From an uncultured Verrucomicrobiota bacterium (GTDB lineage: Bacteria > Verrucomicrobiota > Verrucomicrobiia > Palsa-1439), in assembly GCA_964533295.1 (NCBI GenBank), contig CAZHLM010000001.1:180633-244632 (forward strand): DNA of 64,000 nt, read 5' to 3'. Under the pieces are notes generated by a model that had not been told where the DNA came from, did not search any database, and worked only from the letters and a program-made list of their open reading frames with translations. The position numbers and the translations under genes were made by a program. Positions 18,197 to 30,701 of this stretch are shown here, in pieces; the first letter of the stretch is position 1; the number at the start of each line of letters is the position of its first letter.

Positions 18197-18230
18197 ACGC
18201 TCCTCAATCCCGTTGATATACTCTTCCTCC

Positions 18231-20357
18231 TCAGGCCCGCAGCATCCGCAAGCCACTACCGATGACGACGAACTCGCTGATCTCGTGGCCCAGTACGGCG
18301 ATAGGCAGGGAGAAGACGCCGGCGACCGCGCCAACGACTAACGCGCCGATCACCAGGGCCGACAGCCCCAGGTTCTGGTTCACGACCGACTGGTTGCGCT
18401 TCGCCAACCGGAGCGCGTAAGCCAGCTTCTCCAGATCGTCTGCCATCAGGGCCACGTCGGCGGTTTCCAGCGCCACGTCCGTGCCCGCCGCGCCCATCGC
18501 CACGCCCACGGTCGCTTCGGCCAGCGCCGGAGCATCGTTCACCCCGTCGCCCACCATCGCGACGTGGCCATGTCGCTGAGACAGCTCGCGCACTTTCACC
18601 AGTTTGTCTTCCGGCTTCAAGTCGGCATATACCTCGTCAATGCCCAACTCTCGGGCGATGGCCTGTGCGGTGCGTTCGTTGTCGCCGGTGAGCATCACAA
18701 CCTTCTGAACGCCCGCCGCGTGCAGCGCGTCAATCGCTTTGCGCGCATTCGGGCGGATGTTGTCGCGGATGGCGATCAGGCCCCACGGCGCCTGCTCGTC
18801 GCCGACGACCACCACGGTCTTGCCTTCGCCCTGAAGCTGTTGAATGTCGTCCCACGCGCCATGCAAAGAGACGCCCAGGCGGGCGTGAAACAGGTCCGGG
18901 CTGCCGACGTATACGGTATGCCCGTCCAGGCGCGCCGACGCCCCCGCCCCGGTCAGCGACCGGAAGCTGTCCAGTTCCGCTGGAGCAACTGTCTGCTGCT
19001 CAGCATGGCGGACGATAGCCCGCGCCAGGGGATGACCGCTGCGCCGCTCGATGCCAGCCGCTACCGCCAGCACTTCTTGGGCAGAAGTCGTAGGTTGATC
19101 CGGGTCGGTGCGGCAGAGCACCACATCGGTTACTTCCGGTTCGCCTCTCGTCAGCGTGCCGGTCTTATCCAGCGCCACCACCTTTACTTTCGCCAGTTCT
19201 TCGACGTAGACGCCGCCCTTGATGAGCACGCCCTGGCGCGCGCCCGTGCCGAGTGAAGCCACCAGGGTGATGGGGATCGAGATGACCAGGGCACACGGGG
19301 CGGCGGCCACGATGAAGACCGTGGCGCGGGTGATCCAGGTCGTCCAATCGGCGCTGAAGAACAGCGGCGGAATCGCGGCGATGAGAATTCCGATAAGCAG
19401 CACCGCCGGGCTGTAGCGCGCGCCGAAGCGTTCGATGAAGCGCTGGCTCCTGCCTTTCTTCTCCTGGGCCTCTTCGACCATGTGGATGATGCGCGCGATG
19501 GTGTTCTCGGCGAAGGTCTTGGTCGCCCGGACTTCCAGCGCACCCTCGCCGTTGATGCTGCCCGCGAACACTGTGTCGCCGGGCTGCTTCTCCACCGGCA
19601 CGCTCTCGCCCGTGACCGGGGCCTGGTTCATGCTGGAAGCGCCGACGAGCACCACGCCGTCCGTGGCGACGGACTGTCCCGGCTTGACGATGAACACGTC
19701 GCCCACTTCCAGTTCTTCGACCGGGATCTCACGCTCGACCCCATCGCGCCGGACCAGCGCGACCTTCGGCGCCAGGTTCATCAGCGCCTTGATCGCCGCA
19801 CGGGTTTTCTCTTCCGTGTAACCTTCAGCCGCTTCGCTGATGGAATACAGGAAGACCAGCATGGCGCCTTCGGCGGCCTGGCCCATGATCATCGCCACGA
19901 CAGCAGCCACGCTCATAAGCAGCTCAATGCCGATCTCGCGCTCGAAGATCAACTCTTCGATGGCTTCCCGGCCAAAGAAATATCCGCCGATGAGGATGGC
20001 GGCAACATAAATGACGGTTGAGACAATCTCTGGTGCGCCAGCCAGCCCGATGAGCCAGCCGGCGAGCAACAGCACACCCGACGCAGCCGACGTGAGCACC
20101 TTGGGGTTGCGCCAGGGTTTAGGCTGCTCGGCCATCTCCATGCCCTTTTGCGGTGGAAAGCCGAGCGCTTCCAGCTTTTCTTTCAAGGCTTCGGGCCGGG
20201 TCAGCGCCGGATCGTAGGTCAATGTGACTTTGGCGGATTTCGGATAGACCTTTAGCCCAGTCAGCCCCGCGAAGCTTTGCAGGCCACGCTCAATGTTGGC
20301 TGCATCATGTTCGCAATCGAGGTTGGCAACACGAAGTTCGAGTTGTTTGGTGTTCAT
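18231..20357 (-). CDS. P1B-type heavy-metal-translocating ATPase with APC transmembrane motif and degenerate HMA domain
   Basis: [17 protein letters not shown]. The TM6 motif is AAAPCALVISIP. The N-terminal ferredoxin-like domain has a single Cys (NLDCEHD) instead of CxxC. Confidence 0.85.
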   Translation of the reverse strand: MNTKQLELRVANLDCEHDAANIERGLQSFAGLTGLKVYPKSAKVTLTYDPALTRPEALKEKLEALGFPPQKGMEMAEQPKPWRNPKVLTSAASGVLLLAGWLIGLAGAPEIVSTVIYVAAILIGGYFFGREAIEELIFEREIGIELLMSVAAVVAMIMGQAAEGAMLVFLYSISEAAEGYTEEKTRAAIKALMNLAPKVALVRRDGVEREIPVEELEVGDVFIVKPGQSVATDGVVLVGASSMNQAPVTGESVPVEKQPGDTVFAGSINGEGALEVRATKTFAENTIARIIHMVEEAQEKKGRSQRFIERFGARYSPAVLLIGILIAAIPPLFFSADWTTWITRATVFIVAAAPCALVISIPITLVASLGTGARQGVLIKGGVYVEELAKVKVVALDKTGTLTRGEPEVTDVVLCRTDPDQPTTSAQEVLAVAAGIERRSGHPLARAIVRHAEQQTVAPAELDSFRSLTGAGASARLDGHTVYVGSPDLFHARLGVSLHGAWDDIQQLQGEGKTVVVVGDEQAPWGLIAIRDNIRPNARKAIDALHAAGVQKVVMLTGDNERTAQAIARELGIDEVYADLKPEDKLVKVRELSQRHGHVAMVGDGVNDAPALAEATVGVAMGAAGTDVALETADVALMADDLEKLAYALRLAKRNQSVVNQNLGLSALVIGALVVGAVAGVFSLPIAVLGHEISEFVVIGSGLRMLRA

Positions 20358-20362
20358 CTTTC

Positions 20363-20665
20363 TTATTCCATCGGGATGATCTCGCGGTACTTGCCGCCAA
20401 GGGACTGCTCCGGTAATTCCTCAGCGTACTCGACCGTGACGTGGTCGAGCTTGTACCTGGCGAGCAGGCGCGTGAGTTCGGTATGCACTGCCTTCCAGAC
20501 GCGGCCCGGGTCAGAGCCGTGCGCGAAACGCAGGCACACACGCAGGTTCGTCGGCTTGGTCTGCACGGCCTGGAATTGCTCGATCCCCGGTAGCCGCCAC
20601 CGAGTATTCTGGCTTAATGTCGTACCTTCTGACTTATTTCCACTTCGAGTAATAACTGTAGACAT
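20363..20665 (-). CDS. small protein resembling a cation-diffusion-facilitator cytoplasmic C-terminal domain (stand-alone)
   Basis: About 100 aa: PGIEQFQAVQTKPTNLRVCLRFAHGSD...LLARYKLDHVTVEYAE. This follows the beta-alpha-beta-beta-alpha pattern and spacing of CDF C-terminal domains (compare E. coli YiiP CTD). Ends 5 nt before the ATPase start. Confidence 0.3.
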   Translation of the reverse strand: MSTVITRSGNKSEGTTLSQNTRWRLPGIEQFQAVQTKPTNLRVCLRFAHGSDPGRVWKAVHTELTRLLARYKLDHVTVEYAEELPEQSLGGKYREIIPME

Positions 20666-20691
20666 AGTTAGCGGTTGGGCATCGCCGCCTT

Positions 20692-21483
20692 TCAACGTAT
20701 CACCCGAGGCAAAAATCGTCCGGTGCGTTTCATATAGTCGCGATACGCGTCGCCGAATTTCCCGATCATCACGCGCTCTTCACGCTCGACGCGCAGGAGC
20801 ACGATCACACACAGGCCGACGAGCGGAACACCGCCGACGAGCCAGCTCCGCGTCAGCAGTAGAATCGCCGCCATGGACAGAAACAATGCCGTATACATCG
20901 GGTGGCGCATGTAGCGATAAGGCCCGCTGGTCACCAGCCTATGCTCCCGGCGCACATGGAGCGTCGGCGAAAAATTGCTCCCCAGGGCCTGCTGCGTCCA
21001 CGCGAGGAGGGGAAGACTGACTATGCCCAGCACAACGCCCAGCCACTGCAATCATTGCGGCAGCGGCAGTTCCGCCCACGCCAGGACCTGCGGGCGAACG
21101 ATGTAGAGTAAGACATCGAGGAAAAATATTGCGCCAATGAGGGCGCGCAAGGCGATATTCAGCTTACCTTCTTTGTATTCAACCTGCCCCTGCACTAGCC
21201 GGGCGCGCCACTGGAAATACACACGGATCGCGGCAAACAGCGTGAAGAAGACGACAAAGACGCTGTGGAAAAACGTTTGGCTCATTCTAAGACTCTGTGC
21301 CAACGAACCGGCTATGCTTTCACAAAGTTCGCCGAGAAAAAGTACCACGGCCCGGGCATGGCTTGTAGTCGAAAGCCCGTCGCCTCTGCCAATCGTTTCA
21401 CTGTCGCGCGGGATTGGTAGTGTGGGTCGGGAAAGATTTCCGTGATCGAAAGCTGGCCGCCAGATTTGAGCGCCGCATAACAC
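20692..21483 (-). pseudogene. isoprenylcysteine carboxyl methyltransferase (ICMT/CzcN-like) family membrane protein interrupted by an in-frame TGA at 21052-21054
   Basis: One continuous frame: ...AWAELPLPQ-TGA-LQWLGVVLG...RYMRHPMYTALFL (ICMT RHPxY region). The N- and C-halves are listed as ORFs 21052..21483 and 20692..21051 in the same frame. Probable start ATG 21285. Confidence 0.55.
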
Positions 21484-21938
21484 TGCCGCAACGCCGCTTC
21501 ACGGTTCGGGATTTCGCCCAGTACCGTGCAGAAATAAATCACGTCAAAACTATCTGGTGGAAAATGCGGTTGCGTCGCATCGCCCACACTCGTCGTCAGG
21601 TTCGACGCACCGGCCTGCGCCGCCCGCGCTTTGAGCCGTTCAATCATCCCCGGCTGGATATCCAGGCCGACGACTTCGCCGCCGGGTAGCACACGCCGGG
21701 CGGCCGGGATGAGCAGCCGACCGGGCCCCGGCCCTATTTCGAGCACCCGATAGCCAGGTCGCAGCCCAATGCGATCCAGGGTAGTCTGCGTGCCCAGGAC
21801 TCTATCCATCACAGGGCCATCCACAAACCCAGCCAGCCATGTGGGGCAGGGGAGCGAGCGGCGACGGCTCGCCCAGCGCCACCACAGATTGACGGCCACC
21901 AGTGCAAGCAGGAGCAGAACCATGCTTCTCAGGAACAT
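21312..21938 (-). CDS. class I SAM-dependent methyltransferase with N-terminal membrane anchor
   Basis: VLEIGPGPGRL motif I, DVIYFCTVL, ALKSGGQLSITE. Hydrophobic N-terminus. Confidence 0.7.
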   Translation of the reverse strand: MFLRSMVLLLLALVAVNLWWRWASRRRSLPCPTWLAGFVDGPVMDRVLGTQTTLDRIGLRPGYRVLEIGPGPGRLLIPAARRVLPGGEVVGLDIQPGMIERLKARAAQAGASNLTTSVGDATQPHFPPDSFDVIYFCTVLGEIPNREAALRQCYAALKSGGQLSITEIFPDPHYQSRATVKRLAEATGFRLQAMPGPWYFFSANFVKA

Positions 21939-21945
21939 GGTCTCT

Positions 21946-22401
21946 TCACCCCCCCTGTAACCCTCGGAGTGGCCTCAACATCCGATAGAACAGCAAGACT
22001 GCTCCCATCACCAGGGCCACGTCGGCCAGATTAAAGGGGACACCGGCACGCAGGTAATCGACCGGATGGCCGACTCGCCAGCCATCGGCCAGGTTGCCCA
22101 GCAGTCCCCCGAGAAAAACTGCCACTGCGGTACGATAGAGGGCGTCGGGGACAATGTGGCGCTTGTACCACCACAAGAAGGGCACACCGATAATCGTCAA
22201 CACAACAAAAAAGGAGGCGGTATCAAGCATCGCACTGCCAGGGCTGACGGGCCGTGTGATCCCCATCCGTCCGAGAATGAACAGGCGGGACGCGCCTTCC
22301 GGCAGGGCAAATTCCACGACCAGGTCAAAAGCCTGATCTAGCAGCAATAGAGCAAACGAGATCACGGTGAACCGGTGCGGTCGCCAATTCATTGCAGGCA
22401 T
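21946..22401 (-). CDS. lspA: lipoprotein signal peptidase II
   Basis: Conserved LspA boxes including FNLADVALV and VDY. Four TM helices. 151 aa. Confidence 0.8.
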   Translation of the reverse strand: MPAMNWRPHRFTVISFALLLLDQAFDLVVEFALPEGASRLFILGRMGITRPVSPGSAMLDTASFFVVLTIIGVPFLWWYKRHIVPDALYRTAVAVFLGGLLGNLADGWRVGHPVDYLRAGVPFNLADVALVMGAVLLFYRMLRPLRGLQGG

Positions 22402-22913
22402 TATTCGCTGTCTGGCGAAGCTTTCGGAATGCGTCCAGCTATGAGCAGAAGGATCAGACCCAGCACGATGAAACTGTCCGCCAGGTTGAAAGTCGGCCAG
22501 CGGGCCGTGCCGAGGCCCAGGTCGAGGAAATCGGTGACGCGGCCATCCGGCAGGCGGTCGGCGAAGTTGGCAATCGCCCCGCCGAGAATCAGCCCGATGG
22601 GCCAGGCCGCCGCACGAGTCTGTTCGCCGCTGCGGAGGGTGTTCACCAGCCAGACCGCCAGGCCAATGATGATGAGGCCGGTGATGACGAGCGGCCAGAT
22701 GCCGCCGTTGGCAAACAGCCCGAATGCCACGCCGGTGTTATAGCTAAGCGTGAGACGGAACATGTCACCCAATATCGGCACAGGCCGATGAAGGCGAAGC
22801 GTTTGCTCCGCCCAGAGTTTGGACACGCTGTCCGCGACCAACGCCAGCAGCAGTCCCAGTAACACTCCTGAAACGGCTTTGAGTTTTCTATCCATTACCA
22901 TGCCTGCCAACAT
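22401..22913 (-). CDS. lspA: lipoprotein signal peptidase II, second tandem copy
   Basis: NTGVAFG, FNLADSFIV. Overlaps the downstream lspA by 1 nt. Confidence 0.8.
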   Translation of the reverse strand: MLAGMVMDRKLKAVSGVLLGLLLALVADSVSKLWAEQTLRLHRPVPILGDMFRLTLSYNTGVAFGLFANGGIWPLVITGLIIIGLAVWLVNTLRSGEQTRAAAWPIGLILGGAIANFADRLPDGRVTDFLDLGLGTARWPTFNLADSFIVLGLILLLIAGRIPKASPDSE

Positions 22914-22976
22914 CGAGTTATCACATTATCAAATGATGATATAACGCACCAAAATAAAAAGGCCTACGCACGATCC

Positions 22977-23732
22977 TCAACGCACGCCTGCCATCCGCAA
23001 CTTCATGTCGATCCGGGCCGCCGCTTCAGCAAAGAAGATTTCGGCTTGAGGGTAGGCCAGCCAGACCAGGCCAAGGCCGAACAGGAAGCCGGTCAGCAAC
23101 CGCATCCACCAATTGAACGAGCCGATGACGTCGGTAGCATAAAACCAAAGCGGAAAGGCATTCGCCGTCAGCGCCGCCAGCCAGACGTTCGTTTCGCGGA
23201 ACCCAACTCCAAGTCCCATCAGGTCACTAATAAAGTGGGTGCCGCCGTCTATGGCAATGGGGAAGGTGAGCAGGGCAAAAGCCCACAGCGGCAGCGGGCG
23301 CAGCCGTTTGCTCAAAGGCCGCCAGACGAGTATCAGGAGCCAAATCGCGCCATACATCGCAGTCGTCCGGTCACACCACGCCACCTTGTAACCTAACTGC
23401 TGATTGCCGATGAACTGGCGCAGGAGGAGGGGATTATTGGTTGGCTGCCAGGCTGCCTGAATCTCGGCCAGCGAGTACATGGATTTCATGCCGAATAAGT
23501 AGTAGGCTCGCTCAGGCAGTTGGTGACACTCGAAGGAATAAATGAAGTAGATCGCGCGCGCCAGGCCGGTTGCGCCCACCTTCATGAATACCGGCGCCAG
23601 CCACGGGAGGGTGATAAATATCCCGAAGAACGTGATAAAGGTTGCCACCCAATTGCGGCTGAGCCCTAACACCAGCCGGTTGGCGACAATGGCGTTGCGG
23701 CGGGACGGTGACATCTCAAGCGGAGTGCTCAT
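22977..23732 (-). CDS. DUF2085-like membrane protein (CHQLPER motif)
   Basis: Internal ATG 23732 (MSTPLEM...). Polytopic, with a conserved YSFECHQLPERAYYLFG box characteristic of DUF2085. Confidence 0.5.
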   Translation of the reverse strand: MSTPLEMSPSRRNAIVANRLVLGLSRNWVATFITFFGIFITLPWLAPVFMKVGATGLARAIYFIYSFECHQLPERAYYLFGMKSMYSLAEIQAAWQPTNNPLLLRQFIGNQQLGYKVAWCDRTTAMYGAIWLLILVWRPLSKRLRPLPLWAFALLTFPIAIDGGTHFISDLMGLGVGFRETNVWLAALTANAFPLWFYATDVIGSFNWWMRLLTGFLFGLGLVWLAYPQAEIFFAEAAARIDMKLRMAGVR

Positions 23733-23754
23733 GCAGTTCGTAACCGTGCGCGCG

Positions 23755-24177
23755 TCAGGCGCGTGCCCGTCCGCGAAGTGCCCGGCGCGGGATCCGCCGA
23801 CCCGTATGAACTCTGGATGCCTGGGTCGGCTGAGATTCCGCAGCCCGGATGTTGTAGCGGGTGCATTCGTAGACACCGCGCGCCACATCCGCCAGGAGCG
23901 ACTCGGTCAGAGCCAATAGTTCACCCACGCGGTCATCGCTCAGATGGTAAGTGACGTAGCGGCCCTCTTGTTCAGCTATCACCAGCCCACAGTCGCGCAG
24001 ACAGCCCAGGTGATTAGAGACATTGGATTGGGAGAGGCCGGTGGCCTCGACGATCTCGCTCACGGTCAGCGGCCCGCTGCGCAGGGCATCCAGGATGCCC
24101 AGGCGCGAGGGATCTCCGAACCCCCGAAAGAGTTTGGCCTTGACTTCCAGACCCGTCTTATCTGCCGTCAACAACAT
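23755..24177 (-). CDS. ArsR/SmtB-family metalloregulator (paralog of 17843..18196)
   Basis: w[45 protein letters not shown]-terminal YECTRYN. Confidence 0.75.
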   Translation of the reverse strand: MLLTADKTGLEVKAKLFRGFGDPSRLGILDALRSGPLTVSEIVEATGLSQSNVSNHLGCLRDCGLVIAEQEGRYVTYHLSDDRVGELLALTESLLADVARGVYECTRYNIRAAESQPTQASRVHTGRRIPRRALRGRARA

Positions 24178-24325: not shown

Positions 24326-25498
24326 TCACGGCCCGTCGTGCGGCTCGGTCGCGCCGGGCATGTGCTCCGGGGGATGCTCTGGGGAGTGGACAGACATCTG
24401 CGTGGCTGAAGGCAAAAGCTTATGCTCGGGATCGTGGTCCGGGGTGTGCTCTGGCATTTGCGTTGCCCAGGGTGTGTGCTCGGGGGTGTGGGCTGGCGGC
24501 ATGTACTCCGGTGTATGGGTCGAGATGGGTGTTGCCCAGGGTGTATGCTCCGGCGTATGGCCCGGCATTTGCGTGTGCTCGGCTGTCGGTTGCGCCCTGT
24601 GCTGCGGCGTATGGCTCATCTCGGGTGTCGGCCACGGTGTGTCGTCAGTCGGCGCGTTCCCATGATTGGCCGGGCTGGACGCGCCGCGCGGCGTGGAAGA
24701 GCGCTCCGGCACTGGGACAATCGGCGCGCCCGTATGGGTCATCACCTTCAACCGCAGGGCCAGCAGCCCGCCATTGCCCTGCACGCGGACATGCGCTTGG
24801 ACAATCAGCCCCACAGTCGGTGTGCCTTCGACCACCGTCTGGTCGTTCACCTGCAGGGCCAGTCCGCTCACGATCCACCGCCCTGGCTCCAGCGCTTCCA
24901 GGCGTCCCTCCAACTCAAGGGCCACTTCACGGCCGAGGCCCACAAGCGTGCGAATCTCTTCCTGCCGTTCCGCCGCGTACTGGCGCTCGATAGCGCTGCG
25001 AGCCTGTGGATCAAGTGTCAGACCCAGGCGCACCTCCTCCCAGGTACGCTTGACGCCATACAGGGCGTCGCCCGGCAGGCTATTGGCTGAGGCGGTGATG
25101 GTCAGAACGCTTGTGACGACGATGACTACCATCAAGTTAAGCGCCACGCGCAATACGAGTTTCATTCCTCTGGTCTCCTTTCCGATCAACAGATCGCGCA
25201 GTGCGGTGACAATCCGCACTGAATAACGGGAAAGGAGCTCGGATGATACGGGACGAACCACCCCTGCTTCAGGGGGCTGGTAAACGCGCGCAGCCGCCAG
25301 CAGGCGTTCCCGCCCGGCGATGAGCGCCTCCGGGCTGGAGCGAGGGGCGGGCAAGCGCCGCACCCAGGTAGCCGTGGAAAGGAGCGGGCGCAGTCGTCCC
25401 GCCTCGGCGGGGTGATGGGCCAGGCAGGCCTCGCCGCTTTCCCCGGCGCGCAGCCGGCCCAGGCACTCGTCCAGAACCAGATCGAAGTCAGGGCTCAT
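24326..25498 (-). CDS. membrane-spanning anti-sigma factor with extracytoplasmic domain and C-terminal His/Pro-rich HTPEHTPW repeat tail
   Basis: Overlaps the upstream ECF sigma gene by 11 nt. N-terminal cytoplasmic Cys/His region, one TM (LVLRVALNLMVVIVVTSVLTI), then an about 170-aa domain, then repeats such as HTPEHTPWATP, HTPEYMPPAHTPEHTPWATQMPEHTPDHDPEH. Confidence 0.55.
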   Translation of the reverse strand: MSPDFDLVLDECLGRLRAGESGEACLAHHPAEAGRLRPLLSTATWVRRLPAPRSSPEALIAGRERLLAAARVYQPPEAGVVRPVSSELLSRYSVRIVTALRDLLIGKETRGMKLVLRVALNLMVVIVVTSVLTITASANSLPGDALYGVKRTWEEVRLGLTLDPQARSAIERQYAAERQEEIRTLVGLGREVALELEGRLEALEPGRWIVSGLALQVNDQTVVEGTPTVGLIVQAHVRVQGNGGLLALRLKVMTHTGAPIVPVPERSSTPRGASSPANHGNAPTDDTPWPTPEMSHTPQHRAQPTAEHTQMPGHTPEHTPWATPISTHTPEYMPPAHTPEHTPWATQMPEHTPDHDPEHKLLPSATQMSVHSPEHPPEHMPGATEPHDGP

Positions 25499-26042
25499 AG
25501 CAACCTTCCTTCACGACGGCGCGGTGGAGGGCGGCCAGTGCCCGATGTTGAAGGGAGCGAATGGCGCGCTCATTCTTCCCCATAATGGCGGCGACTTCCT
25601 CGACCTCACGGTCCTCGACGAAGCGGAGCATGATCAATTGACGCTGCTCCTCAGTCAGCCAGCGCAGCGCCTTCGCCAGGCACTCCTGCGCCAGGTGATA
25701 CTCGGCCACAATGGCGGGATGTCCGGTCTCGCCGGCGACCAGGGCTTCTTCTAGCGGCACGGGCGCAACCGCGTTCCGGACGCGGTAGTGGTCCGCGATC
25801 AGATTGCGGGCGATGGTATACAGCCAGGCCAGGATCGGACGGCCACAGTCGGTATAGTCCCCCACCTTCTTGACCATGCGTGCGAATACTTCAGCGGTCA
25901 GGTCCTCCGCTGCGACCTGATCGCCCACGCGGTAATAGACATAGGTGAACACCGATGGTTGATGGCGTTCGTAAAGCGCGACCAGTGCGTCCGGATCACC
26001 GTGCCGGGCGCGCTGAATGAGATCGGATTCGCAGGAATCCAA
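25488..26042 (-). CDS. ECF-type RNA polymerase sigma-70 factor
   Basis: Region 2 (VFTYVYYRVGD...AEDLTAEVF) and region 4 HTH (RQLIMLRFVEDREVEEVAAIMGKNERAIRSLQHRA). Confidence 0.85.
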   Translation of the reverse strand: MDSCESDLIQRARHGDPDALVALYERHQPSVFTYVYYRVGDQVAAEDLTAEVFARMVKKVGDYTDCGRPILAWLYTIARNLIADHYRVRNAVAPVPLEEALVAGETGHPAIVAEYHLAQECLAKALRWLTEEQRQLIMLRFVEDREVEEVAAIMGKNERAIRSLQHRALAALHRAVVKEGCYEP

Positions 26043-26107: not shown

Positions 26108-27592
26108 TCAGGCGCTCCGCCCAGCCGGCAGGCGCAGTGAGAAGCGTGCGCCGCGGGCTGGGCCGGTCGGGTGGGCCGTTGGGCTCTCCACCATTGCCTG
26201 GCCCCCGTGCGCCTCGGCAAGCTGCCGGACAATGGCGAGACCCAGGCCGGAGCCGCCCGTCGCCCGGTTTCGCGACTTCTCAGCCCGCCAGAATCGGTTG
26301 AAGACGTGGGGGAGATCCTCCGCCAGAAGGCCTGGTCCTTCGTCACGGACGGCCAGCTCGACGCCGCCGGGCGCAGGCCGGGCCTCGACAGCGACGCAGG
26401 TGCCCGCCCGCGTGTAGCGCAGCGCGTTGTCCACCAGGTTGCCCAGGGCCTGTGCCAGCCGCTCAGGATCGGCCTGGATTTCGGGTAGTCCCGGCGCTAC
26501 CTCGGTCGCCAGCGTGATGCCCTTCTCGCCGGCGCGCAGACGCAATCGATCTGTCACCTGCTGAACCAGCGCGCCCACATCCACCGGGCGCTTTTCCAAG
26601 CGCAGCTGCCTGGCCTCCGCCAGGGACAGCGTGCGCAGGTCGCCGATCAGCCGGTTGAGGAGCAAGGCTTCCTGGTGGAGGGAGGCCAACTCTTCTGAAC
26701 TGGCCGGCAGCACGCCGTCGAGCATCGCCTCCAGGTTGCTCTGCATCACCGACAGCGGGGTGCGCAGTTCGTGGGCAATGTCGGCGATCATGTTGCGGCG
26801 CTCGACGGCGTAGCCTTGCAGGGTCTCGGCCATCTGGTTGAAGGTGAGGGCGACCTGCCCGACCTCGTCTTTGTCGCCGACCCACGCGCGCCGACTCAGA
26901 TCACCCTGGGTAATGCCACGCGCGGCGGCGGACAGACTGCGCAAAGGTCGGATGATCTGAAAGAAGAGAATAGATCCCATTACCAGCGCGACACCGCCCG
27001 CCGCCAGGCCGGCCCACAATACGGAGCGATTGACTGCGCCAAGAAAATCACCGGCCGGTGTGGCGGGCGCGTCGAACGGCGTGACGATCAACGTGCCGAC
27101 GCGCCGTTGCTCGACCGTGATCGGCATCCCCCGCGCAACGTCGTCGGCCGGCAAACGGGTTCCGACCAGCGCCCCGGCCGTGTCCGCCACCACCAACGCC
27201 TCGGCGTCGGTAAGAATCAACCGGTTGCCGGAGGCGGCCCACATGTTATCGCTCATCATGCCGGGCTCATTCCACCATCCCCCCATGCCTTCCATCATGT
27301 CCATGCCGTCCCCCATCATGTCCCCCATCCAGCCCTCTCCGCCTGTGCCGCCAGCCGCCCACGGATTCTGCAAAACCGTTTCAACGCCACTCCACGAACC
27401 GGAACGCGCGTAGTAGCCGGCCAGCGCCGGGGCCAGCCAGGCCGCCCACTGACGTCCGCTCTGGGTCACGTACAACTCAAACTGCCCGGTCGTCGCCCGG
27501 CTGACCAGGAAGACGACCATGCCGGTACCGACGACGATGACCAGCGCAAACGCCCCCATCAGCTTGATCCACAAACTGCGCGTCATCCTCAC
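26108..27592 (-). CDS. two-component sensor histidine kinase with Met/Gly/Trp-rich periplasmic sensor domain
   Basis: Two TM helices, HAMP, H-box ADIAHELRTPL, N/G1/G2 boxes. The periplasmic loop contains GWMGDMMGDGMDMMEGMGGWWNEPGMMSDNMW. Confidence 0.85.
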   Translation of the reverse strand: MRMTRSLWIKLMGAFALVIVVGTGMVVFLVSRATTGQFELYVTQSGRQWAAWLAPALAGYYARSGSWSGVETVLQNPWAAGGTGGEGWMGDMMGDGMDMMEGMGGWWNEPGMMSDNMWAASGNRLILTDAEALVVADTAGALVGTRLPADDVARGMPITVEQRRVGTLIVTPFDAPATPAGDFLGAVNRSVLWAGLAAGGVALVMGSILFFQIIRPLRSLSAAARGITQGDLSRRAWVGDKDEVGQVALTFNQMAETLQGYAVERRNMIADIAHELRTPLSVMQSNLEAMLDGVLPASSEELASLHQEALLLNRLIGDLRTLSLAEARQLRLEKRPVDVGALVQQVTDRLRLRAGEKGITLATEVAPGLPEIQADPERLAQALGNLVDNALRYTRAGTCVAVEARPAPGGVELAVRDEGPGLLAEDLPHVFNRFWRAEKSRNRATGGSGLGLAIVRQLAEAHGGQAMVESPTAHPTGPARGARFSLRLPAGRSA

Positions 27593-28347
27593 GCCTCCGC
27601 AAACTTGTAGCCGACGCCATACACGGTAAGAAGGTAGCGCGGCTCGCGTGGATCGGGTTCGATCTTCTGCCGCAGATTCTTCACGTGCTGGTCAATGGTG
27701 CGCTCATAGCCTTCATACGTTGGCCCCTGCGCTTGTTCGAGCAGTTGGGCACGCGTATAGACTCGTCCCGGATAGCGCACGAAGGCCACCAGCAGATCGA
27801 ACTCGTTGGGGGTCAACTCGACCGGTTTGCCGGAAACGGTGACGGTGTGCCGTTGAAGGTCTAGGCGGATATCAGAGGCTTCGATGAACTCTGGGGGCGC
27901 CCCGGGTTGTTCGGCGCGGCGCAGAACGGCGCGCACCCGGGCCACGACTTCGCGCGGCGAGAACGGCTTGGGGATGTAGTCGTCGGCGCCCAGTTCGAGT
28001 CCAATGAGCCGGTCCACTTCTTCGCTCCGGGCGGTGAGCATGATGATGGGCACGTTGGAGTCGCGCCGAAGTGTCCGGCACACATCCAGACCATCCTGCT
28101 CACCCGGCAGGTTCAGGTCGAGCAATACCAGCGCCGGCTTCTCATGGCGGAAGGCGGCCAGCCCTTGTGCGCCATCGGTGGCCCACACGACGCTATATCC
28201 GGCCTGCTCCAGATAGAGCCGCACGGTACGCATGATCTTCGCTTCATCTTCGATGATCAGAATCTTCTTCGCCACGGCCGTATAACGCAACGCAGGGGCG
28301 TCGCACGCTGTGCGAACGCCCCACGTCTGAATGATCGGATCAGGCAA
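27589..28347 (-). CDS. OmpR-family response regulator (alternative GTG start at 28275)
   Basis: Receiver domain KILIIEDE...LLDLNLPG...PIIMLTA, winged-helix C-terminus. 4-nt overlap with the kinase gene. Confidence 0.85.
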   Translation of the reverse strand: MPDPIIQTWGVRTACDAPALRYTAVAKKILIIEDEAKIMRTVRLYLEQAGYSVVWATDGAQGLAAFRHEKPALVLLDLNLPGEQDGLDVCRTLRRDSNVPIIMLTARSEEVDRLIGLELGADDYIPKPFSPREVVARVRAVLRRAEQPGAPPEFIEASDIRLDLQRHTVTVSGKPVELTPNEFDLLVAFVRYPGRVYTRAQLLEQAQGPTYEGYERTIDQHVKNLRQKIEPDPREPRYLLTVYGVGYKFAEA

Positions 28348-28762
28348 GCTGCGCGCCGCAGTGCGGACAGTTGCGCCAATCCGTCTGGGCTGGCTGGCCG
28401 CAATTGGGACAGGCGCGTGACGGTCCGGCGGCGGTGAGCGGGACAGTGTTGCGCGTCAGAGCCTGCACCCGCCACACGCCGCCGGCGACGAGCACCACGA
28501 GCAGGCCCAGTGGGAACAGCCCCATGAGGATCATGCCGATCCAGCCAACGGGGTTGATGCCCATCATGCCAGGGCCGCCCCAGCCGCCCAGACCTGCTCC
28601 GGGCACCAGGGTCATCCCCAGGCCATTCCAGCCGCAGCCATTATAGCCCCAGCCGCCTGCTCGTCCCCAGAGCAGGGGGACCAGCAGATTCGCCCCGAGC
28701 GCGAGCGCCAGCAGGGTTATCCCACCAATCACCAGCCCACGCGTCCAGTTCATGTTTTTCAT
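28340..28762 (-). CDS. small membrane protein with Gly/Trp/Met-rich loop (GWGYNGCGWNG...GGPGMMGINPVGW) and C-terminal zinc ribbon (CPNCG...CPHCG)
   Basis: 140 aa. TM1, low-complexity G/W/M segment, TM2, then CxxC-x10-CxxC. Confidence 0.6.
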   Translation of the reverse strand: MKNMNWTRGLVIGGITLLALALGANLLVPLLWGRAGGWGYNGCGWNGLGMTLVPGAGLGGWGGPGMMGINPVGWIGMILMGLFPLGLLVVLVAGGVWRVQALTRNTVPLTAAGPSRACPNCGQPAQTDWRNCPHCGAQLA

Positions 28763-28794: not shown

Positions 28795-29757
28795 CTACGG
28801 TATAAGAATTAGCTGATCTATGTAGGGGCCGTATTGTTTGTGATACCAGACCTCGCCCGTTAGGCCGCTGACGCTGACCATCCCGATGATCTGATCGGCC
28901 TGCCAGACATCGAAAGTGTAGTAGCCGTAGAAGGTCAGCGGGTCGCCAGCCGTCGCGCCGGGCACATTGAGGTCGAGCGAAGCCTGGGCGATTTGTCTCG
29001 CCTGCTCAGCCGTAACGGTCATCTCCCTGGCTGCTCCCTGACCATAACGAGAGTTCCAACTGACGTTGGGGCCCGGCTCGGGCCAGACCTGTCCGGTGGC
29101 CGGGTCAACCATCAGGGCAAATGCGTGGCGGCCGGTGCTCTGCTCGCGAACGCGTGCATAGTATCCATCGCCAAACCGGATCACTTCGGCCAGCGACAGA
29201 TCGGGGTTGTTGAACGCGACCAGATAAGCCCGCACGGCTTGCGCGGCGGCGTCCAGAGAAGCGATGGGCTGAGCCGTGCTGGGAAGCGTCTGAGAGTGGT
29301 CACGATAGCTATTGTTCCCTCTATATCCGCCCATCCCCCAACCATCGTTCATCATGCCGCCCCGCATCCCCCAGTTCCCATTCATCGCACCGGGCATACT
29401 ATAACCGGGCGCAGCGTTGTACTGTGGGGACATGCCAGGCCTCATCTCCCAGTCGTCCCAACCCCTGTTTCCCATGCTGCCGGTCCAGCCGCCGTAGCCA
29501 CCCGGCCATCCGTCAGGTTGCGGCGGCGTCGCAGAGCTGGGGGCAATCGGGCCATTGTCCGCAGCCAGCGGCAACAGTGTGGTGGTTTGAGATGGCAAAT
29601 CGGCGCTGGTCAACGGTGAGGCTGTGGACAACGGCTCGACCACAATAGCCGCCCGCCTCGCTGGAGCTAACGCCATCCCCGACGCTAACCCGGCAGACGC
29701 CAGCACGACGCCGCCAACGACAAAGCCCAACACTCTGAAGATAGTGGTGCGGTTCAT
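28795..29757 (-). CDS. secreted/anchored protein with Met/Gly/Trp-rich region followed by two PepSY-like domains
   Basis: N-terminal hydrophobic anchor. Region GWPGGYGGWTGSMGNRGWDDWEMRPGMSP...GMRGGMMNDGWGMGGY. The C-terminal about 170 aa has PepSY-like alpha/beta pattern. Confidence 0.5.
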   Translation of the reverse strand: MNRTTIFRVLGFVVGGVVLASAGLASGMALAPARRAAIVVEPLSTASPLTSADLPSQTTTLLPLAADNGPIAPSSATPPQPDGWPGGYGGWTGSMGNRGWDDWEMRPGMSPQYNAAPGYSMPGAMNGNWGMRGGMMNDGWGMGGYRGNNSYRDHSQTLPSTAQPIASLDAAAQAVRAYLVAFNNPDLSLAEVIRFGDGYYARVREQSTGRHAFALMVDPATGQVWPEPGPNVSWNSRYGQGAAREMTVTAEQARQIAQASLDLNVPGATAGDPLTFYGYYTFDVWQADQIIGMVSVSGLTGEVWYHKQYGPYIDQLILIP

Positions 29758-29772: not shown

Positions 29773-30411
29773 TCAGTTGTTGGGCGCGCCGGCTGCCACC
29801 CAGTTCACGAGTGTCTGAATCTGCGCCTGGGTCAGCGACGGGCCGCCATAGGGCATATAGCCGCTGGCGACATACTGAATCAGGCGACTGCCAACCGGGT
29901 CACCCGGAAGGATGACCGGCCCATTCGTACTGCCACGCAGCACGCTGTCGTAGTCGGTCAGGTACAGGCCGCGCGCGCCGCCGTGACAGGCCACACACCG
30001 CGCCTCGAAGATCGGTTGAATGTCTTTCTGGAATGAAACCGATGTGGTAGTCGGTGCGGGAACTGTTGACGTGATGGCGGTCGAACGGCCCCAGTACCCA
30101 TGCATCGGCATCATGCCCATTCGCATCGAGCCCATCCCCCAACCGCCCCAATCTTCACGCCAGCTGCCATTGCCACAACAGCCGTTCATCATCCCCGGCC
30201 CGCCCCAGCGCATCCCTGATCTCGACCCCCAACCCCACGGATCACCCCCTGTGTTGCCGGGATTGGGGTTGATATACGCGCCGGGTGACATGGGGGTTGG
30301 GACTGCGACCGATCCACGCGATTGGGCCAGGGCCACCCCGGCAAAAAAGAACGCGCCAGTCAGCACGAGGGCCAACGCTGCCACAAGACCAACGGAAAGT
30401 ATTTTGCGCAT
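29773..30411 (-). CDS. secreted mono-heme c-type cytochrome with N-terminal Met/Gly/Trp/Cys-rich region
   Basis: Signal peptide. GPGMMNGCCGNGSWREDWGGWGMGSMRMGMMPMHGYWG. Heme site CVACHG plus distal MPYGG Met ligand. Confidence 0.65.
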   Translation of the reverse strand: MRKILSVGLVAALALVLTGAFFFAGVALAQSRGSVAVPTPMSPGAYINPNPGNTGGDPWGWGSRSGMRWGGPGMMNGCCGNGSWREDWGGWGMGSMRMGMMPMHGYWGRSTAITSTVPAPTTTSVSFQKDIQPIFEARCVACHGGARGLYLTDYDSVLRGSTNGPVILPGDPVGSRLIQYVASGYMPYGGPSLTQAQIQTLVNWVAAGAPNN

Positions 30412-30655
30412 GATCTACCTCCAGGGCTGTTCTCGAGTTTCTGGCGGCAGTCTAGCGGGAGATTGTGTAGAAGCTGTGAGACTGATTTGAGATTGGCGTA
30501 TACCGGACCCTTGACACCACTCAAGCACCAACCATCATTCCATCCACTAATATGAGTATCTTGGTCGGCCTTGTCCGCTCTAGCCGGTGACACTTATTCT
30601 GTTTTCAGGGTGACATTATCCACATGATGAGCAGGGTGCCTCTGCCTATCATCGC

Positions 30656-30669
30656 TAATGAGAATGACT
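30656..30669. promoter_or_regulatory. Fur-box-like sequence TAATGAGAATGACT upstream of fur (putative autoregulation)
   Basis: 11/14 match to a TAATGATAATCATT half-consensus. Lies 33-46 nt upstream of the probable fur start, in the divergent region shared with the Met-rich operon. Confidence 0.25.
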
Positions 30670-30701
30670 TGCAACAGCAACAACCCAACGGACGGTCTCC
30701 C

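What the first reader, a model, noticed from the sequence alone, without database searches (positions are those of the whole stretch)
26108..27592. Histidine kinase whose periplasmic sensor domain carries the same Met-rich motif as its putative target proteins
Between TM1 and TM2 the kinase contains GGTGGEGWMGDMMGDGMDMMEGMGGWWNEPGMMSDNMW. This matches the composition and the EPGMM/GMM/GWW units of the three downstream-encoded proteins. A sensor that displays the same metal-binding low-complexity motif as the products it likely regulates suggests direct Cu(I)/Ag(I) sensing by a Met cluster, unlike the His/Met-pocket CusS/CopS sensors. Alternatively it suggests motif-mediated interaction between sensor and effector proteins.
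Basis: seen in the sequence. Interest (0 to 1): 0.7.

Follow-up and report, generated by a model that had tools for sequence, protein, structure and literature searches.

The report
Sensor kinase with disordered Met-rich loop
This is a real membrane sensor kinase whose outward-facing domain carries a floppy, methionine-rich loop of the same composition as three exported proteins in its own operon; it belongs to a large, unstudied Chloroflexota family that most likely senses copper-type metal stress, though no metal binding has been shown.

Summary
ORF 26108-27592 (-) is a TM1-sensor-TM2-HAMP-HisKA-HATPase kinase. Residues 81-118 hold 10 Met, 12 Gly and 4 Trp, with no His or Cys anywhere in the outside domain.

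- **Structure:** the sensor is predicted as a small PDC (PAS-like) fold, closest to WalK, CitA and BaeS, not CusS. The Met-rich stretch is a low-confidence (likely disordered) loop between helix alpha2 and strand beta1.
- **Family:** the trait is not unique. The sensor profile finds about 2,200 cluster representatives. Loops from 122 of the top 150 were examined; all relatives that carry an organism label are Chloroflexota. The loop varies in sequence and length but keeps its composition (Met 15.7% versus 1.9% elsewhere). About 19% of relatives have Met-poor loops instead.
- **Operon:** the three Met-rich proteins lie upstream of the regulator and kinase, not downstream. A conserved 11-bp-period direct-repeat box precedes the operon and equivalent genes in related loci, marking them as the likely regulon.
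- **Context:** neighbourhoods are rich in metal genes (P1B ATPases including a Cu(I)-type, ArsR, multicopper oxidases, a CopM-like DUF305 protein).

Best reading: an outside-facing Cu(I)/Ag(I) stress module with a disordered thioether antenna (confidence about 0.5). This is a new variant of a known kind.

The parts
26108..27592 (-). Histidine kinase ORF, 494 aa from GTG 27592; the probable real start is ATG 27586
   Evidence: Pfam finds HAMP, HisKA and HATPase_c. Best NCBIfam match is BaeS_SmeS at 258 bits, below its 500 cutoff.
27503..27571 (-). TM1 (aa 8-30)
   Evidence: Hydrophobic stretch WIKLMGAFALVIVVGTGMVVFLV. It is part of the long helix 7-64 in the AF2 model.
27038..27502 (-). Extracytoplasmic sensor domain (aa 31-185), predicted PDC/PAS-like fold; no His or Cys
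27224..27358 (-). Gly/Met/Trp/Asp-rich loop (aa 79-123; core 81-118 = nt 27239-27352) between helix alpha2 and strand beta1, predicted disordered
   Evidence: pLDDT is <50 for residues 87-109. The homologous position is Gly/Met-rich in 81 of 122 family representatives.
26969..27037 (-). TM2 (aa 186-208)
   Evidence: continuous helix 179-228 running into HAMP.
26816..26959 (-). HAMP domain (aa 212-259)
   Evidence: Pfam PF00672, E=1e-11.
26612..26800 (-). HisKA/DHp domain (aa 265-327); the phospho-acceptor His274 is nt 26771-26773
   Evidence: Pfam PF00512. The H-box AHELRTP is located.
26123..26470 (-). HATPase_c catalytic domain (aa 375-490)
   Evidence: Pfam PF02518, E=1e-26.
27589..28347 (-). 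OmpR/PhoB-family response regulator; the ORF is over-extended and the likely start is GTG at 28275 (228 aa, as in orthologs)
   Evidence: Response_reg plus Trans_reg_C. Best NCBIfam matches are MtrA/BaeR; cztR_silR_copR scores 156, below its 279 cutoff. Its stop overlaps the kinase start by 4 nt.
28340..28762 (-). p140: small membrane protein, TM - Gly/Trp/Met-rich outside loop (nt 28547-28666) - TM - cytoplasmic zinc ribbon (nt 28343-28426)
   Evidence: Zn_ribbon_3, E=1e-8. Sequence. Homologs sit upstream of related kinases in L083, L089, L098, L107, L131 and L132.
28795..29757 (-). p320: N-terminally anchored exported protein with a Gly/Met/Trp-rich region (nt 29308-29514) and a C-terminal tandem PepSY-like domain (nt 28798-29292)
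   Evidence: No Pfam hit for the protein itself. Homologs occur in 13 related loci. 7 of 9 homologs give weak PepSY hits, best E=1.6e-4 at 22.4 bits against a 24-bit cutoff.
29773..30411 (-). p212: signal peptide, Gly/Met/Trp-rich region (nt 30091-30258), then a c-type cytochrome domain (CVACH at aa 139-143; nt 29776-30066)
   Evidence: PSCyt1 and Cytochrome_CBB3 hits. A homolog is in L131. An analogous Met-rich cytochrome c occupies the same operon position in L085.
30464..30481 (-). Candidate response-regulator operator TCTCACA-GCTT-CTACACA, two half-sites 11 bp apart, 53-70 nt upstream of the p212 ATG
   Evidence: It is the only match to YTHCACANNNNYTHCAMA (<=1 mismatch) in the 64 kb; 0.31 expected. 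Related loci hold 36 matches against 4.4 +/- 2.4 in shuffles. 33 of 36 are on the kinase strand, and 31 lie in front of annotated cassette genes.
24326..26042 (-). Context, same strand and downstream of the kinase: ECF sigma factor (26042..25488) and an anti-sigma-like DUF5667/DUF5666 protein with a Pro/Thr/His-rich tail (25498..24326). Whether they belong to the operon is uncertain.
   Evidence: Pfam. 65-nt gap after the kinase. A terminator-like hairpin at 24321-24305 follows the anti-sigma-like gene. Tail composition.
15736..24177 (-). Context, a metal island: ArsR-family repressor (24177..23755), DUF2085 (23888..22977), two LspA paralogs, a methyltransferase, and two HMA-domain P1B ATPases (20357..18231 and 17850..15736)

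Best explanation
**What it is.** The ORF is a genuine membrane histidine kinase from an uncultured Anaerolineae-like Chloroflexota bacterium. Its outside domain is a small PDC (PAS-like) fold of the WalK/BaeS type. The connection between helix alpha2 and strand beta1 is expanded into a roughly 40-residue Gly/Met/Trp/Asp-rich loop that is predicted to be disordered.

**Operon.** With its OmpR-type regulator it closes a five-gene operon. The first three genes encode exported or membrane proteins with the same composition:
- a Met-rich cytochrome c;
- a Met-rich tandem PepSY-like protein;
- a TM-loop-TM zinc-ribbon protein.

**Most likely mechanism.** This is an extracytoplasmic soft-metal stress module, with Cu(I)/Ag(I) the best guess.
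1. The thioether- and Trp-rich loop acts as a multivalent, moderate-affinity antenna for Cu(I).
2. Metal loading compacts the loops or cross-links them, either within the kinase dimer or to the like-composed accessory proteins.
3. This shifts the PDC domain and TM2 and raises kinase activity.
4. The phosphorylated regulator binds the direct-repeat box and raises expression of the operon.
5. The Met-rich products buffer or process the metal. Because they share the sensor loop's chemistry, they compete with it and close a feedback loop.

**Shown here:** domain architecture, predicted fold and loop confidence, family-wide conservation of composition, operon structure, the conserved box, and the metal-gene context.

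**Inferred:** metal identity, binding by the loop, binding of the box by this regulator, and the feedback.
For: - **Architecture and topology:**
- **Ligand options:** the outside domain has no His or Cys. Met, Trp and Asp/Glu of the loop are the only soft-ligand candidates.
- **Loop confidence:** pLDDT is <50 for residues 87-109, within an otherwise confident model of mean 87.7.
- **Selection for composition:** in 122 representatives that are <50% identical to each other, the homologous loop is 15.7% Met against 1.9% in the rest of the same proteins. 81 of 122 have >=4 Met. Sequence and length (9-92 aa) are not conserved. ATG-rich coding runs against the 64% GC of the window.
- **Orthologs:** all six Chloroflexota orthologs at 54-63% identity, and all but one of 61 loci with an extractable loop, keep Met in the loop.
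- **Regulon:** the conserved box CTTCACA-N4-CT(T/A)CA(C/A)A occurs once in the window, in the operon promoter. It is 8-fold enriched in related loci, in front of the regulator gene and the Gly/Met-rich accessory genes.
- **Metal context in relatives:**
  - two HMA P1B ATPases and an ArsR repressor in the window;
  - ArsR plus an ATPase divergent from the regulator-kinase pair in L001, L003 and L004;
  - a Cu(I)-type ATPase (YHS, 2x HMA, CPC/YN/MAFSS) directly upstream of the cassette in L138;
  - multicopper oxidases in L114 and L129;
  - a DUF305 (CopM-family) plus LTXXQ protein directly upstream of the regulator-kinase pair in L142-144;
  - CopC/CopD-like and SCO1-like ORFs in L003, assigned by eye and motif, not by profile;
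  - the Pfam census of neighbours.
- **Enrichment:** P1B ATPases occur in 8 of 59 non-redundant loci, although the median flank is only about 4 kb.
- **Precedents:**
  - the CusS flexible Met/His loop contributes to activation (PMC10100754);
  - the copMRS operon (PMC4335983);
  - the disordered SilE sponge (PMC5008109);
  - the CueO Met-rich domain recruits Cu(I) (PMC11494321).
Against: - No experiment of any kind supports binding.
- 23 of 122 family representatives have <=1 Met in the loop (Gly/Arg/Gln repeats, or acidic/Trp-rich). The fold therefore signals without Met.
- The canonical Cu(I) spacing MxM is depleted (97 against 174 expected) and MxxM is at expectation. MM and MxxxM are enriched instead.
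- The two ATPases in this window are not classical Cu(I) pumps. They carry CSC and APC transmembrane motifs and score higher on the Cd/Zn-type model than the Cu-type model. From memory, the ArsR protein resembles Cd/Pb-sensing CmtR.
- Relatives with fewer Met sit mainly beside rhodanese, thioredoxin and OsmC genes, not metal pumps.
- The metal association is partly confounded by shared ancestry among close relatives.
- Low pLDDT does not prove disorder.
- The conserved YYxxxGSWxGVE surface of the folded core could bind a different ligand or a partner protein.
Confidence: 0.5

Rival explanations
1. Accessory-protein sensing. The kinase loop is a docking element for the like-composed tails of the co-regulated exported proteins (PepSY-like, DUF2680-like, TM-loop-TM zinc-ribbon). 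These proteins hold the kinase off or on, as CpxP does for CpxA, ZraP for ZraS, or YycH/YycI for WalK. The real stimulus, metal or not, acts by titrating them.
For: - Accessory genes are conserved next to the kinase and share its box promoter.
- The composition of partner tails tracks that of the kinase loop. In L003 the partner has 12 Met in 40 residues and the loop 9 in 40. In L081 the partner tail is GRG/GFG-rich and the loop is GRGQGSMG.
- p140 has the same TM-loop-TM layout as the sensor.
- A CpxP/ZraP-family LTXXQ domain is fused to the DUF305 protein next to related kinases.
Against: - The correlation in composition rests on a few clades and is not phylogenetically independent.
- No interaction was modelled or measured.
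- This reading is compatible with, rather than exclusive of, metal bridging.
Confidence: 0.2
2. Oxidant sensing. [quoted passage not shown] The Met-rich products act as sacrificial antioxidants.
For: - Met is the residue most readily oxidised in exported proteins, and HprSR responds to chlorine oxidants (PMC9805139; PMC9302797).
- AhpC/TSA, OsmC, thioredoxin, rhodanese and DsbA-like genes are frequent neighbours.
- A cytochrome c is in the operon.
Against: - No Met sulfoxide reductase family (MsrA, MsrB, MsrP) appears among the top neighbour families.
- Explicit copper genes (Cu-ATPase, multicopper oxidases, DUF305/CopM-like protein) are not explained.
- Thioredoxin and DsbA genes are also common in copper and cytochrome-maturation loci.
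Confidence: 0.12
3. General envelope-stress or hydrophobic-ligand sensing of the BaeS type. Flexible Met side chains form a 'methionine bristle' surface that binds unfolded or hydrophobic molecules rather than metals.
For: - The best family match over the whole protein, sensor included, is BaeS_SmeS (258 bits, aa 17-469).
- The fold resembles the BaeS and WalK sensors.
Against: - The score is far below the BaeS cutoff of 500.
- No efflux pump or chaperone regulon lies nearby.
- The acidic, Gly-rich loop is not hydrophobic overall.
- The metal-gene context is left unexplained.
Confidence: 0.08
4. The loop is a functionally neutral, fast-evolving spacer. Its composition is a lineage habit of exported Chloroflexota proteins, and sensing is done elsewhere (PDC core, transmembrane helices).
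For: - The loop is hypervariable in length and sequence, and about 19% of relatives lack Met.
- Weak 9- and 12-nt tandem duplications underlie part of it.
Against: - An 8-fold Met enrichment is maintained across hundreds of diverged lineages, against GC pressure.
- In the 64-kb window, Met-rich regions occur only in this operon.
- In related loci, nearly all Met-rich neighbours are cassette members.
- The loop's C-terminal end is semi-conserved as [DN]-M-[WM]-x-M-M-G.
Confidence: 0.08

Closest known systems
CusS/CusR (E. coli), also CopS and SilS: Cu(I)/Ag(I)-sensing two-component systems
   Same: - Membrane kinase with an alpha/beta outside domain, HAMP and HisKA, paired with an OmpR-type regulator.
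- A flexible Met-containing loop contributes to activation in CusS (PMC10100754).
- Metal-resistance gene context.
   Different: - The sensor domains are not homologous by sequence. TIGR01386 covers only aa 184-472 and scores below its cutoff.
- The His42/Phe43/His176 interface site has no counterpart, since the domain has no His.
- The loop here is about 40 aa with 10 Met, free of His, and in a different place in the fold.
- There is no RND efflux operon.
Synechocystis copMRS operon (CopM = DUF305 copper-binding protein plus CopRS)
   Same: - An exported metal-binding protein is encoded upstream of the regulator and kinase in one self-controlled operon (PMC4335983).
- Related kinases in L142-144 have a DUF305 protein in exactly that position.
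   Different: - The window has no DUF305 protein. Its accessory proteins are a Met-rich cytochrome c, a PepSY-like protein and a zinc-ribbon membrane protein.
- Homology of the CopS sensor to this family was not tested.
BaeS and WalK extracytoplasmic PDC sensor domains
   Same: - Best sequence-family match is BaeS_SmeS, over aa 17-469.
- Best structural matches are WalK 4ywz/7dud and BaeS 5wvn.
- Same TM-PDC-TM-HAMP layout.
   Different: - The score (258) is well below the BaeS equivalog cutoff (500).
- Those sensors have no Gly/Met-rich insertion.
- Different regulons (efflux pumps; cell-wall hydrolases).
SilE/PcoE metal sponges, and the Met-rich inserts of CueO and PcoA
   Same: Disordered or partly disordered Met-rich segments facing the outside that bind or recruit Cu(I)/Ag(I) (PMC5008109; PMC11494321).
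   Different: - Those are effector proteins or enzymes, not sensor domains.
- They are usually rich in both His and Met, with MxM or MxxM spacing.
- Here His is absent, and MM and MxxxM dominate.
CpxA-CpxP and ZraS-ZraP: a kinase plus a regulon-encoded periplasmic modulator
   Same: The regulon includes exported proteins that could feed back on the sensor. An LTXXQ domain appears beside related kinases.
   Different: No LTXXQ protein is in the window, and no interaction evidence exists.
HprSR (E. coli), an oxidant-sensing system of the CusS family
   Same: An outside-facing sensor for which Met chemistry has been proposed as the trigger. The role of Met residues in HprS is recalled from memory. 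The oxidant response is documented in PMC9805139.
   Different: No msrPQ-type regulon here. The Met density is far higher and sits in a low-complexity loop.

Membership tests
Class I transmembrane histidine kinase (HAMP-HisKA-HATPase_c) | HAMP, HisKA with H-box His, and HATPase_c domains after two transmembrane helices | tested here: met
   Pfam hits all exceed their cutoffs. His274 sits in AHELRTP. The AF2 model has mean pLDDT 87.7.
Heavy-metal sensor kinases CusS/CopS/SilS/CzcS (NCBIfam TIGR01386) | Whole-protein score at or above the curated cutoff, including the sensor region | tested here: not met
   170.4 bits against a 292.55 cutoff. The match covers aa 184-472 only, which is TM2 to the kinase core.
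Heavy-metal sensor kinases CusS/CopS/SilS/CzcS (NCBIfam TIGR01386) | Membrane-proximal His/Phe metal site on the helices flanking the sensor (CusS H42, F43, H176) | tested here: not met
   No His or Cys anywhere in aa 31-185. The CusS sites are taken from PMC10100754.
Heavy-metal sensor kinases CusS/CopS/SilS/CzcS (NCBIfam TIGR01386) | Cu/Ag-dependent activation | not testable with these tools
   Needs autophosphorylation or reporter assays.
BaeS/SmeS envelope-stress kinases (NCBIfam NF012163) | Score at or above the equivalog cutoff | tested here: not met
   Best hit of all families, but 258.1 bits against a cutoff of 500. It is BaeS-like, not BaeS.
PDC / extracytoplasmic PAS-like (sCache-type) sensor fold | Long N-terminal helix packed on a central antiparallel sheet; structural similarity to CitA, DcuS, PhoQ or WalK sensors | tested here: met
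Met-rich Cu(I)/Ag(I)-binding disordered segments (SilE/PcoE, CueO insert, Ctr1 Mets motifs) | High Met density in a flexible, outside-facing segment | tested here: met
   10 Met in 38 residues. pLDDT <50. Topology.
Met-rich Cu(I)/Ag(I)-binding disordered segments (SilE/PcoE, CueO insert, Ctr1 Mets motifs) | Canonical MxM / MxxM (often with His) ligand spacing | tested here: not met
   Across 173 loops, MxM is depleted (97 against 174 expected), MxxM is about as expected (183 against 170), and MM and MxxxM are enriched. His is 1.6%.
Met-rich Cu(I)/Ag(I)-binding disordered segments (SilE/PcoE, CueO insert, Ctr1 Mets motifs) | Measured Cu(I)/Ag(I) binding | not testable with these tools
   Requires purified protein.
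copMRS-type autoregulated operon (metal-binding accessory gene + regulator + kinase) | Accessory exported protein(s) encoded upstream of the regulator and kinase in one unit, under a regulator-type operator | tested here: met
   Gene gaps of 15, 32 and about 64 nt, and a 4-nt overlap. Candidate box at 30464-30481. Binding of the box by the regulator is inferred.
copMRS-type autoregulated operon (metal-binding accessory gene + regulator + kinase) | Accessory protein of the DUF305 (CopM) family | tested here: not met
   None in the window. Present next to related kinases in L142-144.

The most novel reading that the evidence does not exclude
The composition-matched disordered regions in the sensor and in its own regulon products implement a sensing principle not yet described for two-component systems. 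The kinase carries a tethered copy of the extracellular metal buffer. It reads out buffer saturation, or forms metal-bridged assemblies between disordered regions of the sensor and accessory proteins. The loop also behaves as a swappable specificity cassette: Met-rich, His/acidic-rich or Gly/Arg/Gln-rich in different lineages.
Probability: 0.2. Interest if true: 0.8.

Novelty: new variant of a known kind. Interest (0 to 1): 0.6.

Why it matters
- **Sensing by composition.** If the loop is the ligand-binding element, a kinase would sense a metal through a disordered, composition-defined segment rather than a folded pocket. That would extend what is known from CusS.
- **A defined, testable module.** The work outlines an unstudied but very common Chloroflexota module: kinase, regulator, Gly/Met-rich accessory proteins and a predicted operator. 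Chloroflexota are abundant in wastewater, sediment and soil, where copper and silver exposure matters.
- **Annotation.** The predicted operator and the accessory families (PepSY-like, DUF2680-like, TM-loop-TM zinc ribbon, Met-rich cytochrome c) give a route to naming thousands of 'hypothetical' genes.

Tried and rejected
- **Second word-index profile search** with a 31-sequence sensor alignment: only 11 hits and no new taxonomy, probably swamped by low-complexity words.
- **afdb50 fold library:** not available.
- **Exact-protein look-up of the window kinase:** not on record, so the source organism or sample stays unknown.
- **PDB sequence searches:** nothing for the sensor profile or for p320.
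- **Literature:** no description of Met-rich loops in kinase sensors, of DUF2680 function, or of this system in Chloroflexota.
- **A TGTCACC direct repeat** near the fur start was considered as the operator. It was dropped because it is absent from all related loci.
- **Regex screens for copper-protein motifs** were mostly uninformative and were replaced by Pfam scans.
- **No tandem DNA repeat** underlies the His-rich tail of the anti-sigma-like protein.
- **P0013's contig** gave little context.
- **'A shared EPGMM/GWW motif':** only PGMM is shared, with two of the three proteins, so the motif claim was replaced by a composition claim.
Full report
**1. The observation**

- The ORF at 26108..27592 (-) encodes 494 aa. 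Its GTG start overlaps the stop of the upstream regulator gene. An ATG two codons later (27586) gives MTRSLW..., the N-terminus seen in orthologs.
- Pfam finds HAMP (212-259), HisKA (265-327) and HATPase_c (375-490), and nothing for residues 30-195.
- The quoted stretch is residues 81-118, nt 27239-27352. It holds 10 Met, 12 Gly, 4 Trp and 7 Asp/Glu of 38 residues.
- At the local Met frequency of 2.2%, P(>=10 Met in 38) is 8e-9.
- Among all six reading frames of the window, the only other 40-aa windows with >=7 Met are in two neighbouring ORFs of the same operon and in one out-of-context frame.
- The outside domain (aa 31-185) contains no His and no Cys. Its Met residues are 89, 92, 93, 97, 99, 100, 103, 112, 113, 117 and 156.

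**2. Operon and corrections**

All genes are on the minus strand, in this order:

| Gene | Coordinates | Description |
|---|---|---|
| p212 | 30411..29773 | signal peptide, Gly/Met/Trp region, c-type cytochrome domain with CVACH |
| p320 | 29757..28795 | membrane anchor, Gly/Met/Trp region, C-terminal domain |
| p140 | 28762..28340 | TM, Gly/Trp/Met loop, TM, cytoplasmic zinc ribbon |
| regulator | ORF 28347..27589 | OmpR-type; likely start GTG 28275 |
| kinase | 27592..26108 | this finding |

- Sources.
- Gaps are 15, 32 and about 64 nt, and the regulator and kinase overlap by 4 nt.
- The four low-complexity regions are alike in composition (cosine 0.83-0.96, against about 0.5 to background).
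- They share almost no exact words. Only PGMM (p212, p140) and GMGG (p320) are common 4-mers.
- Only weak 9- and 12-nt tandem repeats underlie the kinase loop.
- Downstream on the same strand lie:
  - an ECF sigma factor;
  - an anti-sigma-like DUF5667/DUF5666 protein with a Pro/Thr/His-rich tail;
  - an ArsR repressor and a DUF2085 protein;
  - two LspA paralogs and a methyltransferase;
  - two HMA-domain P1B ATPases.
- Divergent on the other side are Fur, an FTR1-FtrD fusion and a MacB-like ABC system.

**3. Structure**

- AlphaFold2 with a 63-sequence alignment gives mean pLDDT 87.7.
- The predicted elements are:
  - helix 7-64 (TM1 plus alpha1);
  - alpha2 at 70-80;
  - a segment with pLDDT <50 at 87-109;
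  - a short helix at 117-120;
  - strands at 123-129, 133-137, 156-160 and 163-172;
  - a continuous helix 179-228 (TM2 into HAMP).
- By Foldseek it matches WalK (prob 0.98-0.99) and the BaeS sensor (5wvn, prob 0.80).
- CusS is in neither list. No PDB chain is detectable by sequence.
- The domain is therefore a small PDC/PAS-like sensor, and the Met-rich stretch is an insertion in the alpha2-beta1 connection that is probably disordered.
- From the usual PDC topology this connection lies at the membrane-distal end. That placement is an inference.

**4. Family**

- NCBIfam's best match is BaeS_SmeS (258 bits, cutoff 500) over aa 17-469.
- The heavy-metal kinase model TIGR01386 scores 170 against a cutoff of 292.55 and covers only aa 184-472. 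The regulator likewise falls below the CusR/CopR-type model.
- A profile of the sensor region (A1) searched against 1.84 billion cluster representatives finds 2,219 proteins at E<=1e-3 and 1,050 at E<=1e-10.
- I re-aligned the best 150 and extracted the loop between the conserved Trp78 and Arg124 in 122 of them:
  - median length is 30 aa, range 9-92;
  - composition is Gly 25.9% and Met 15.7%, against Met 1.9% in the rest of the same proteins;
  - 81 have >=4 Met;
  - 23 have <=1 Met, mostly GRGQG-type repeats and a few acidic/Trp-rich loops.
- The commonest tripeptides are MMG, GMM, GMG, GQG and GRG.
- MM and MxxxM spacings are enriched and MxM is depleted. The loop's C-terminal end is semi-conserved as [DN]-M-[W/M]-x-M-M-G.
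- Every relative that carries an organism label is Chloroflexota: Anaerolineae, Caldilineaceae, Phototrophicaceae, Ca. Flexifilum, Chloroflexaceae and Thermoflexales.
- The six full-length genome orthologs (54-63% identity) all have a Met-rich loop of different sequence.
- A Chloroflexaceae homolog (34%) has a His/Asp/Glu-rich loop at the same site. An Eubacteriales homolog and P0016 have no Met-rich loop.
- Composition, not sequence, is what is conserved. This holds against a 64% GC background in which ATG is disfavoured.

**5. Accessory genes and regulon**

- In 61 related loci with an extractable loop, Met-rich neighbours are almost always members of a few families:
  - p320 homologs in 13 loci;
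  - p140 homologs in 6 loci;
  - a Met-rich cytochrome c in L131 and, as an analogue, L085;
  - a secreted DUF2680-like protein with Gly/Met(/His) tails in at least 19 loci.
- p320 homologs give recurrent sub-threshold PepSY hits: 7 of 9, best E=1.6e-4.
- The composition of the partner tails follows that of the kinase loop, Met-dense with Met-dense and GRG/GFG with GRGQG. The comparison involves few independent clades.
- Comparing promoters revealed a conserved direct repeat, CTTCACA-N4-CT(T/A)CA(C/A)A, with 11-bp period. A -10-like element usually follows.
- Written as YTHCACANNNNYTHCAMA with <=1 mismatch, it occurs once in the 64-kb window. That site is 30464-30481 (-), 53-70 nt upstream of the p212 start. 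0.31 matches are expected by chance.
- In 427 kb of non-redundant related loci it occurs 36 times, against 4.4 +/- 2.4 in shuffles. 33 of the 36 are on the kinase strand.
- Most lie 10-135 nt upstream of an annotated cassette gene. A few fall inside over-extended ORF calls.
- The sites precede DUF2680-like genes (15), p320-like genes (6), p140-like genes (2) and regulator genes (8).
- This is the architecture expected for an OmpR/PhoB-type activator site. It supports autoregulation and places the Gly/Met-rich proteins in the regulon. Binding by this regulator is inferred.

**6. What is sensed**

Gene context favours soft metals, copper in particular.
- ArsR plus a P1B ATPase lie divergently upstream of the regulator-kinase pair in L001, L003 and L004.
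- L138 has a YHS-HMA-HMA ATPase with the Cu(I) signature CPC / YN / MAFSS directly upstream of p320-like, regulator and kinase genes.
- L114 and L129 have multicopper oxidases.
- L142-144 have a DUF305 (CopM-family) protein fused to an LTXXQ/Metal_resist domain, with MDHSxMM motifs, directly upstream of the regulator and kinase. This mirrors the Synechocystis copMRS operon (PMC4335983).
- L003 carries CopC/CopD-like and SCO1-like ORFs, assigned by eye and motif only.
- In the Pfam census of neighbours of kinases with the most Met-rich loops, the top families are:
  - P-type ATPase/HMA and ArsR;
  - AhpC-TSA and cytochrome c;
  - PCYCGC, multicopper oxidase and ZIP;
  - MerR.
- P1B ATPases occur in 8 of 59 non-redundant loci although the median flank is only about 4 kb.

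Against a simple copper reading:
- The two ATPases in this window have CSC and APC motifs and score better as Cd/Zn-type.
- Relatives with fewer Met are surrounded mainly by rhodanese, thioredoxin and OsmC genes, plus two CsoR-type repressors.
- MxM motifs are depleted.
- About 19% of the family lacks Met in the loop.

**7. Mechanism and rivals**

- The best-supported model (confidence about 0.5) has four steps:
  1. The loop acts as a multivalent thioether/Trp antenna for Cu(I)/Ag(I).
  2. Metal-dependent compaction or cross-linking of the loop switches the PDC-TM2-HAMP relay.
  3. The regulator then activates the box promoters.
  4. The like-composed products buffer or process the metal and compete with the sensor loop.
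- Precedents:
  - the flexible Met/His loop of CusS (PMC10100754);
  - the disordered SilE sponge (PMC5008109);
  - Cu(I) recruitment by the CueO Met-rich domain (PMC11494321).
- Rivals and their confidences:
  - accessory-protein sensing of the CpxP/ZraP/YycHI kind (0.2);
  - Met-oxidation sensing as proposed for HprS (0.12; PMC9805139);
  - BaeS-like envelope or hydrophobic-ligand sensing (0.08);
  - a neutral spacer (0.08).

**8. Comparison and novelty**

- The protein works like a CusS/CopS-type metal sensor but is not a member of that family. Its sensor is WalK/BaeS-like in fold and belongs to an uncharacterised Chloroflexota family.
- No paper in the searchable library describes Met-rich disordered loops in kinase sensors of this kind, or this cassette.
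- I rate it a new variant of a known kind. The specific gene is one ordinary member of its family. The family-level picture (loop, matched accessory proteins, operator) is what is new and testable.

Noticed in passing
window 30464-30481 (-), and 36 sites in related loci (e.g. L003:4424, L004:7224, L098:3831 and 4308, L107:365 and 841, L002:2394): A conserved 11-bp-period direct repeat, CTTCACA-N4-CT(T/A)CA(C/A)A, sits in front of the regulator gene and the Gly/Met-rich accessory genes. It is a candidate operator defining the regulon of this kinase family.
   Followed up: yes
L001:9531-10292, L002:2440-3096, L003:6735-7316, L004:9695-10318, L005:9544-10272, L081:9518-10054, L082:5397-5855(-), and about 12 more loci: A secreted DUF2680-like helical protein with Gly/Met(/His)-rich tails is the commonest partner of this kinase family, although the window lacks it. 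Its tail composition tracks that of the kinase loop.
   Followed up: partly
L007:1849-3513 (Chloroflexaceae MAG): A 34%-identical homolog carries a His/Asp/Glu-rich insert (GHHHRYEEDDEDDEEEHEDND...) at exactly the loop position that is Met-rich here. This hints that the loop is a swappable specificity cassette.
   Followed up: no
L142:3859-5028 (also L143, L144): A DUF305 (CopM-family) protein fused to an LTXXQ/Metal_resist (CpxP/ZraP-like) domain, with MDHSxMM motifs, is encoded directly upstream of a related regulator-kinase pair. The arrangement resembles copMRS.
   Followed up: partly
window 24326-25498 (-): The anti-sigma-like DUF5667/DUF5666 protein next to an ECF sigma factor ends in a roughly 125-aa Pro/Thr/His/Glu-rich tail (16 His; HTPEHTPWAT-like units) with no DNA tandem repeat. 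It may be a second sensor based on a low-complexity region. The L104 counterpart has a Pro/Gly/Thr tail with almost no His.
   Followed up: partly
window 15736-17850 (-) and 18231-20357 (-): The two HMA-domain P1B ATPases have unusual transmembrane motifs. One has CSC with a GMDCAEC N-terminus. The other has APC with HEISEF and a degenerate LDCEHD metal-binding motif. Orthologs of both types sit next to related kinases (L001/L003 and L004/L114). Their substrate metals are unclear.
   Followed up: partly
window 23755-24177 (-): The ArsR-family repressor has an [12 protein letters not shown] motif plus a C-terminal Cys. From memory this resembles the Cd/Pb sensor CmtR. It is conserved next to the ATPase in L001, L003, L004 and L114. 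Its ORF overlaps the over-extended DUF2085 ORF (22977-23888).
   Followed up: no
window 29773-30411 (-); L085:3735-4427; L131:851-1546: A c-type cytochrome fused to a Gly/Met-rich N-terminal region recurs as the first gene of the cassette. It could be a haem-based Cu(I) oxidase or Cu(II) reductase, which is pure speculation.
   Followed up: partly
window 30624-32450 (+); L085:229-3124: Iron-uptake genes flank the cassette in two independent loci: Fur plus an FTR1-FtrD fusion here, and FeoB plus DtxR-FeoA in L085. This suggests a copper-iron link or a general metal island.
   Followed up: no
window 21946-22913 (-): Two tandem signal peptidase II (LspA)-like paralogs lie within the metal island; the assignment is by eye from the ORF translations, not from a profile hit.
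   Followed up: no
window 30585-30620: A TGTCACC direct repeat with 23-bp spacing lies next to the fur start codon. It is not conserved in related loci and may be a Fur-related site.
   Followed up: partly
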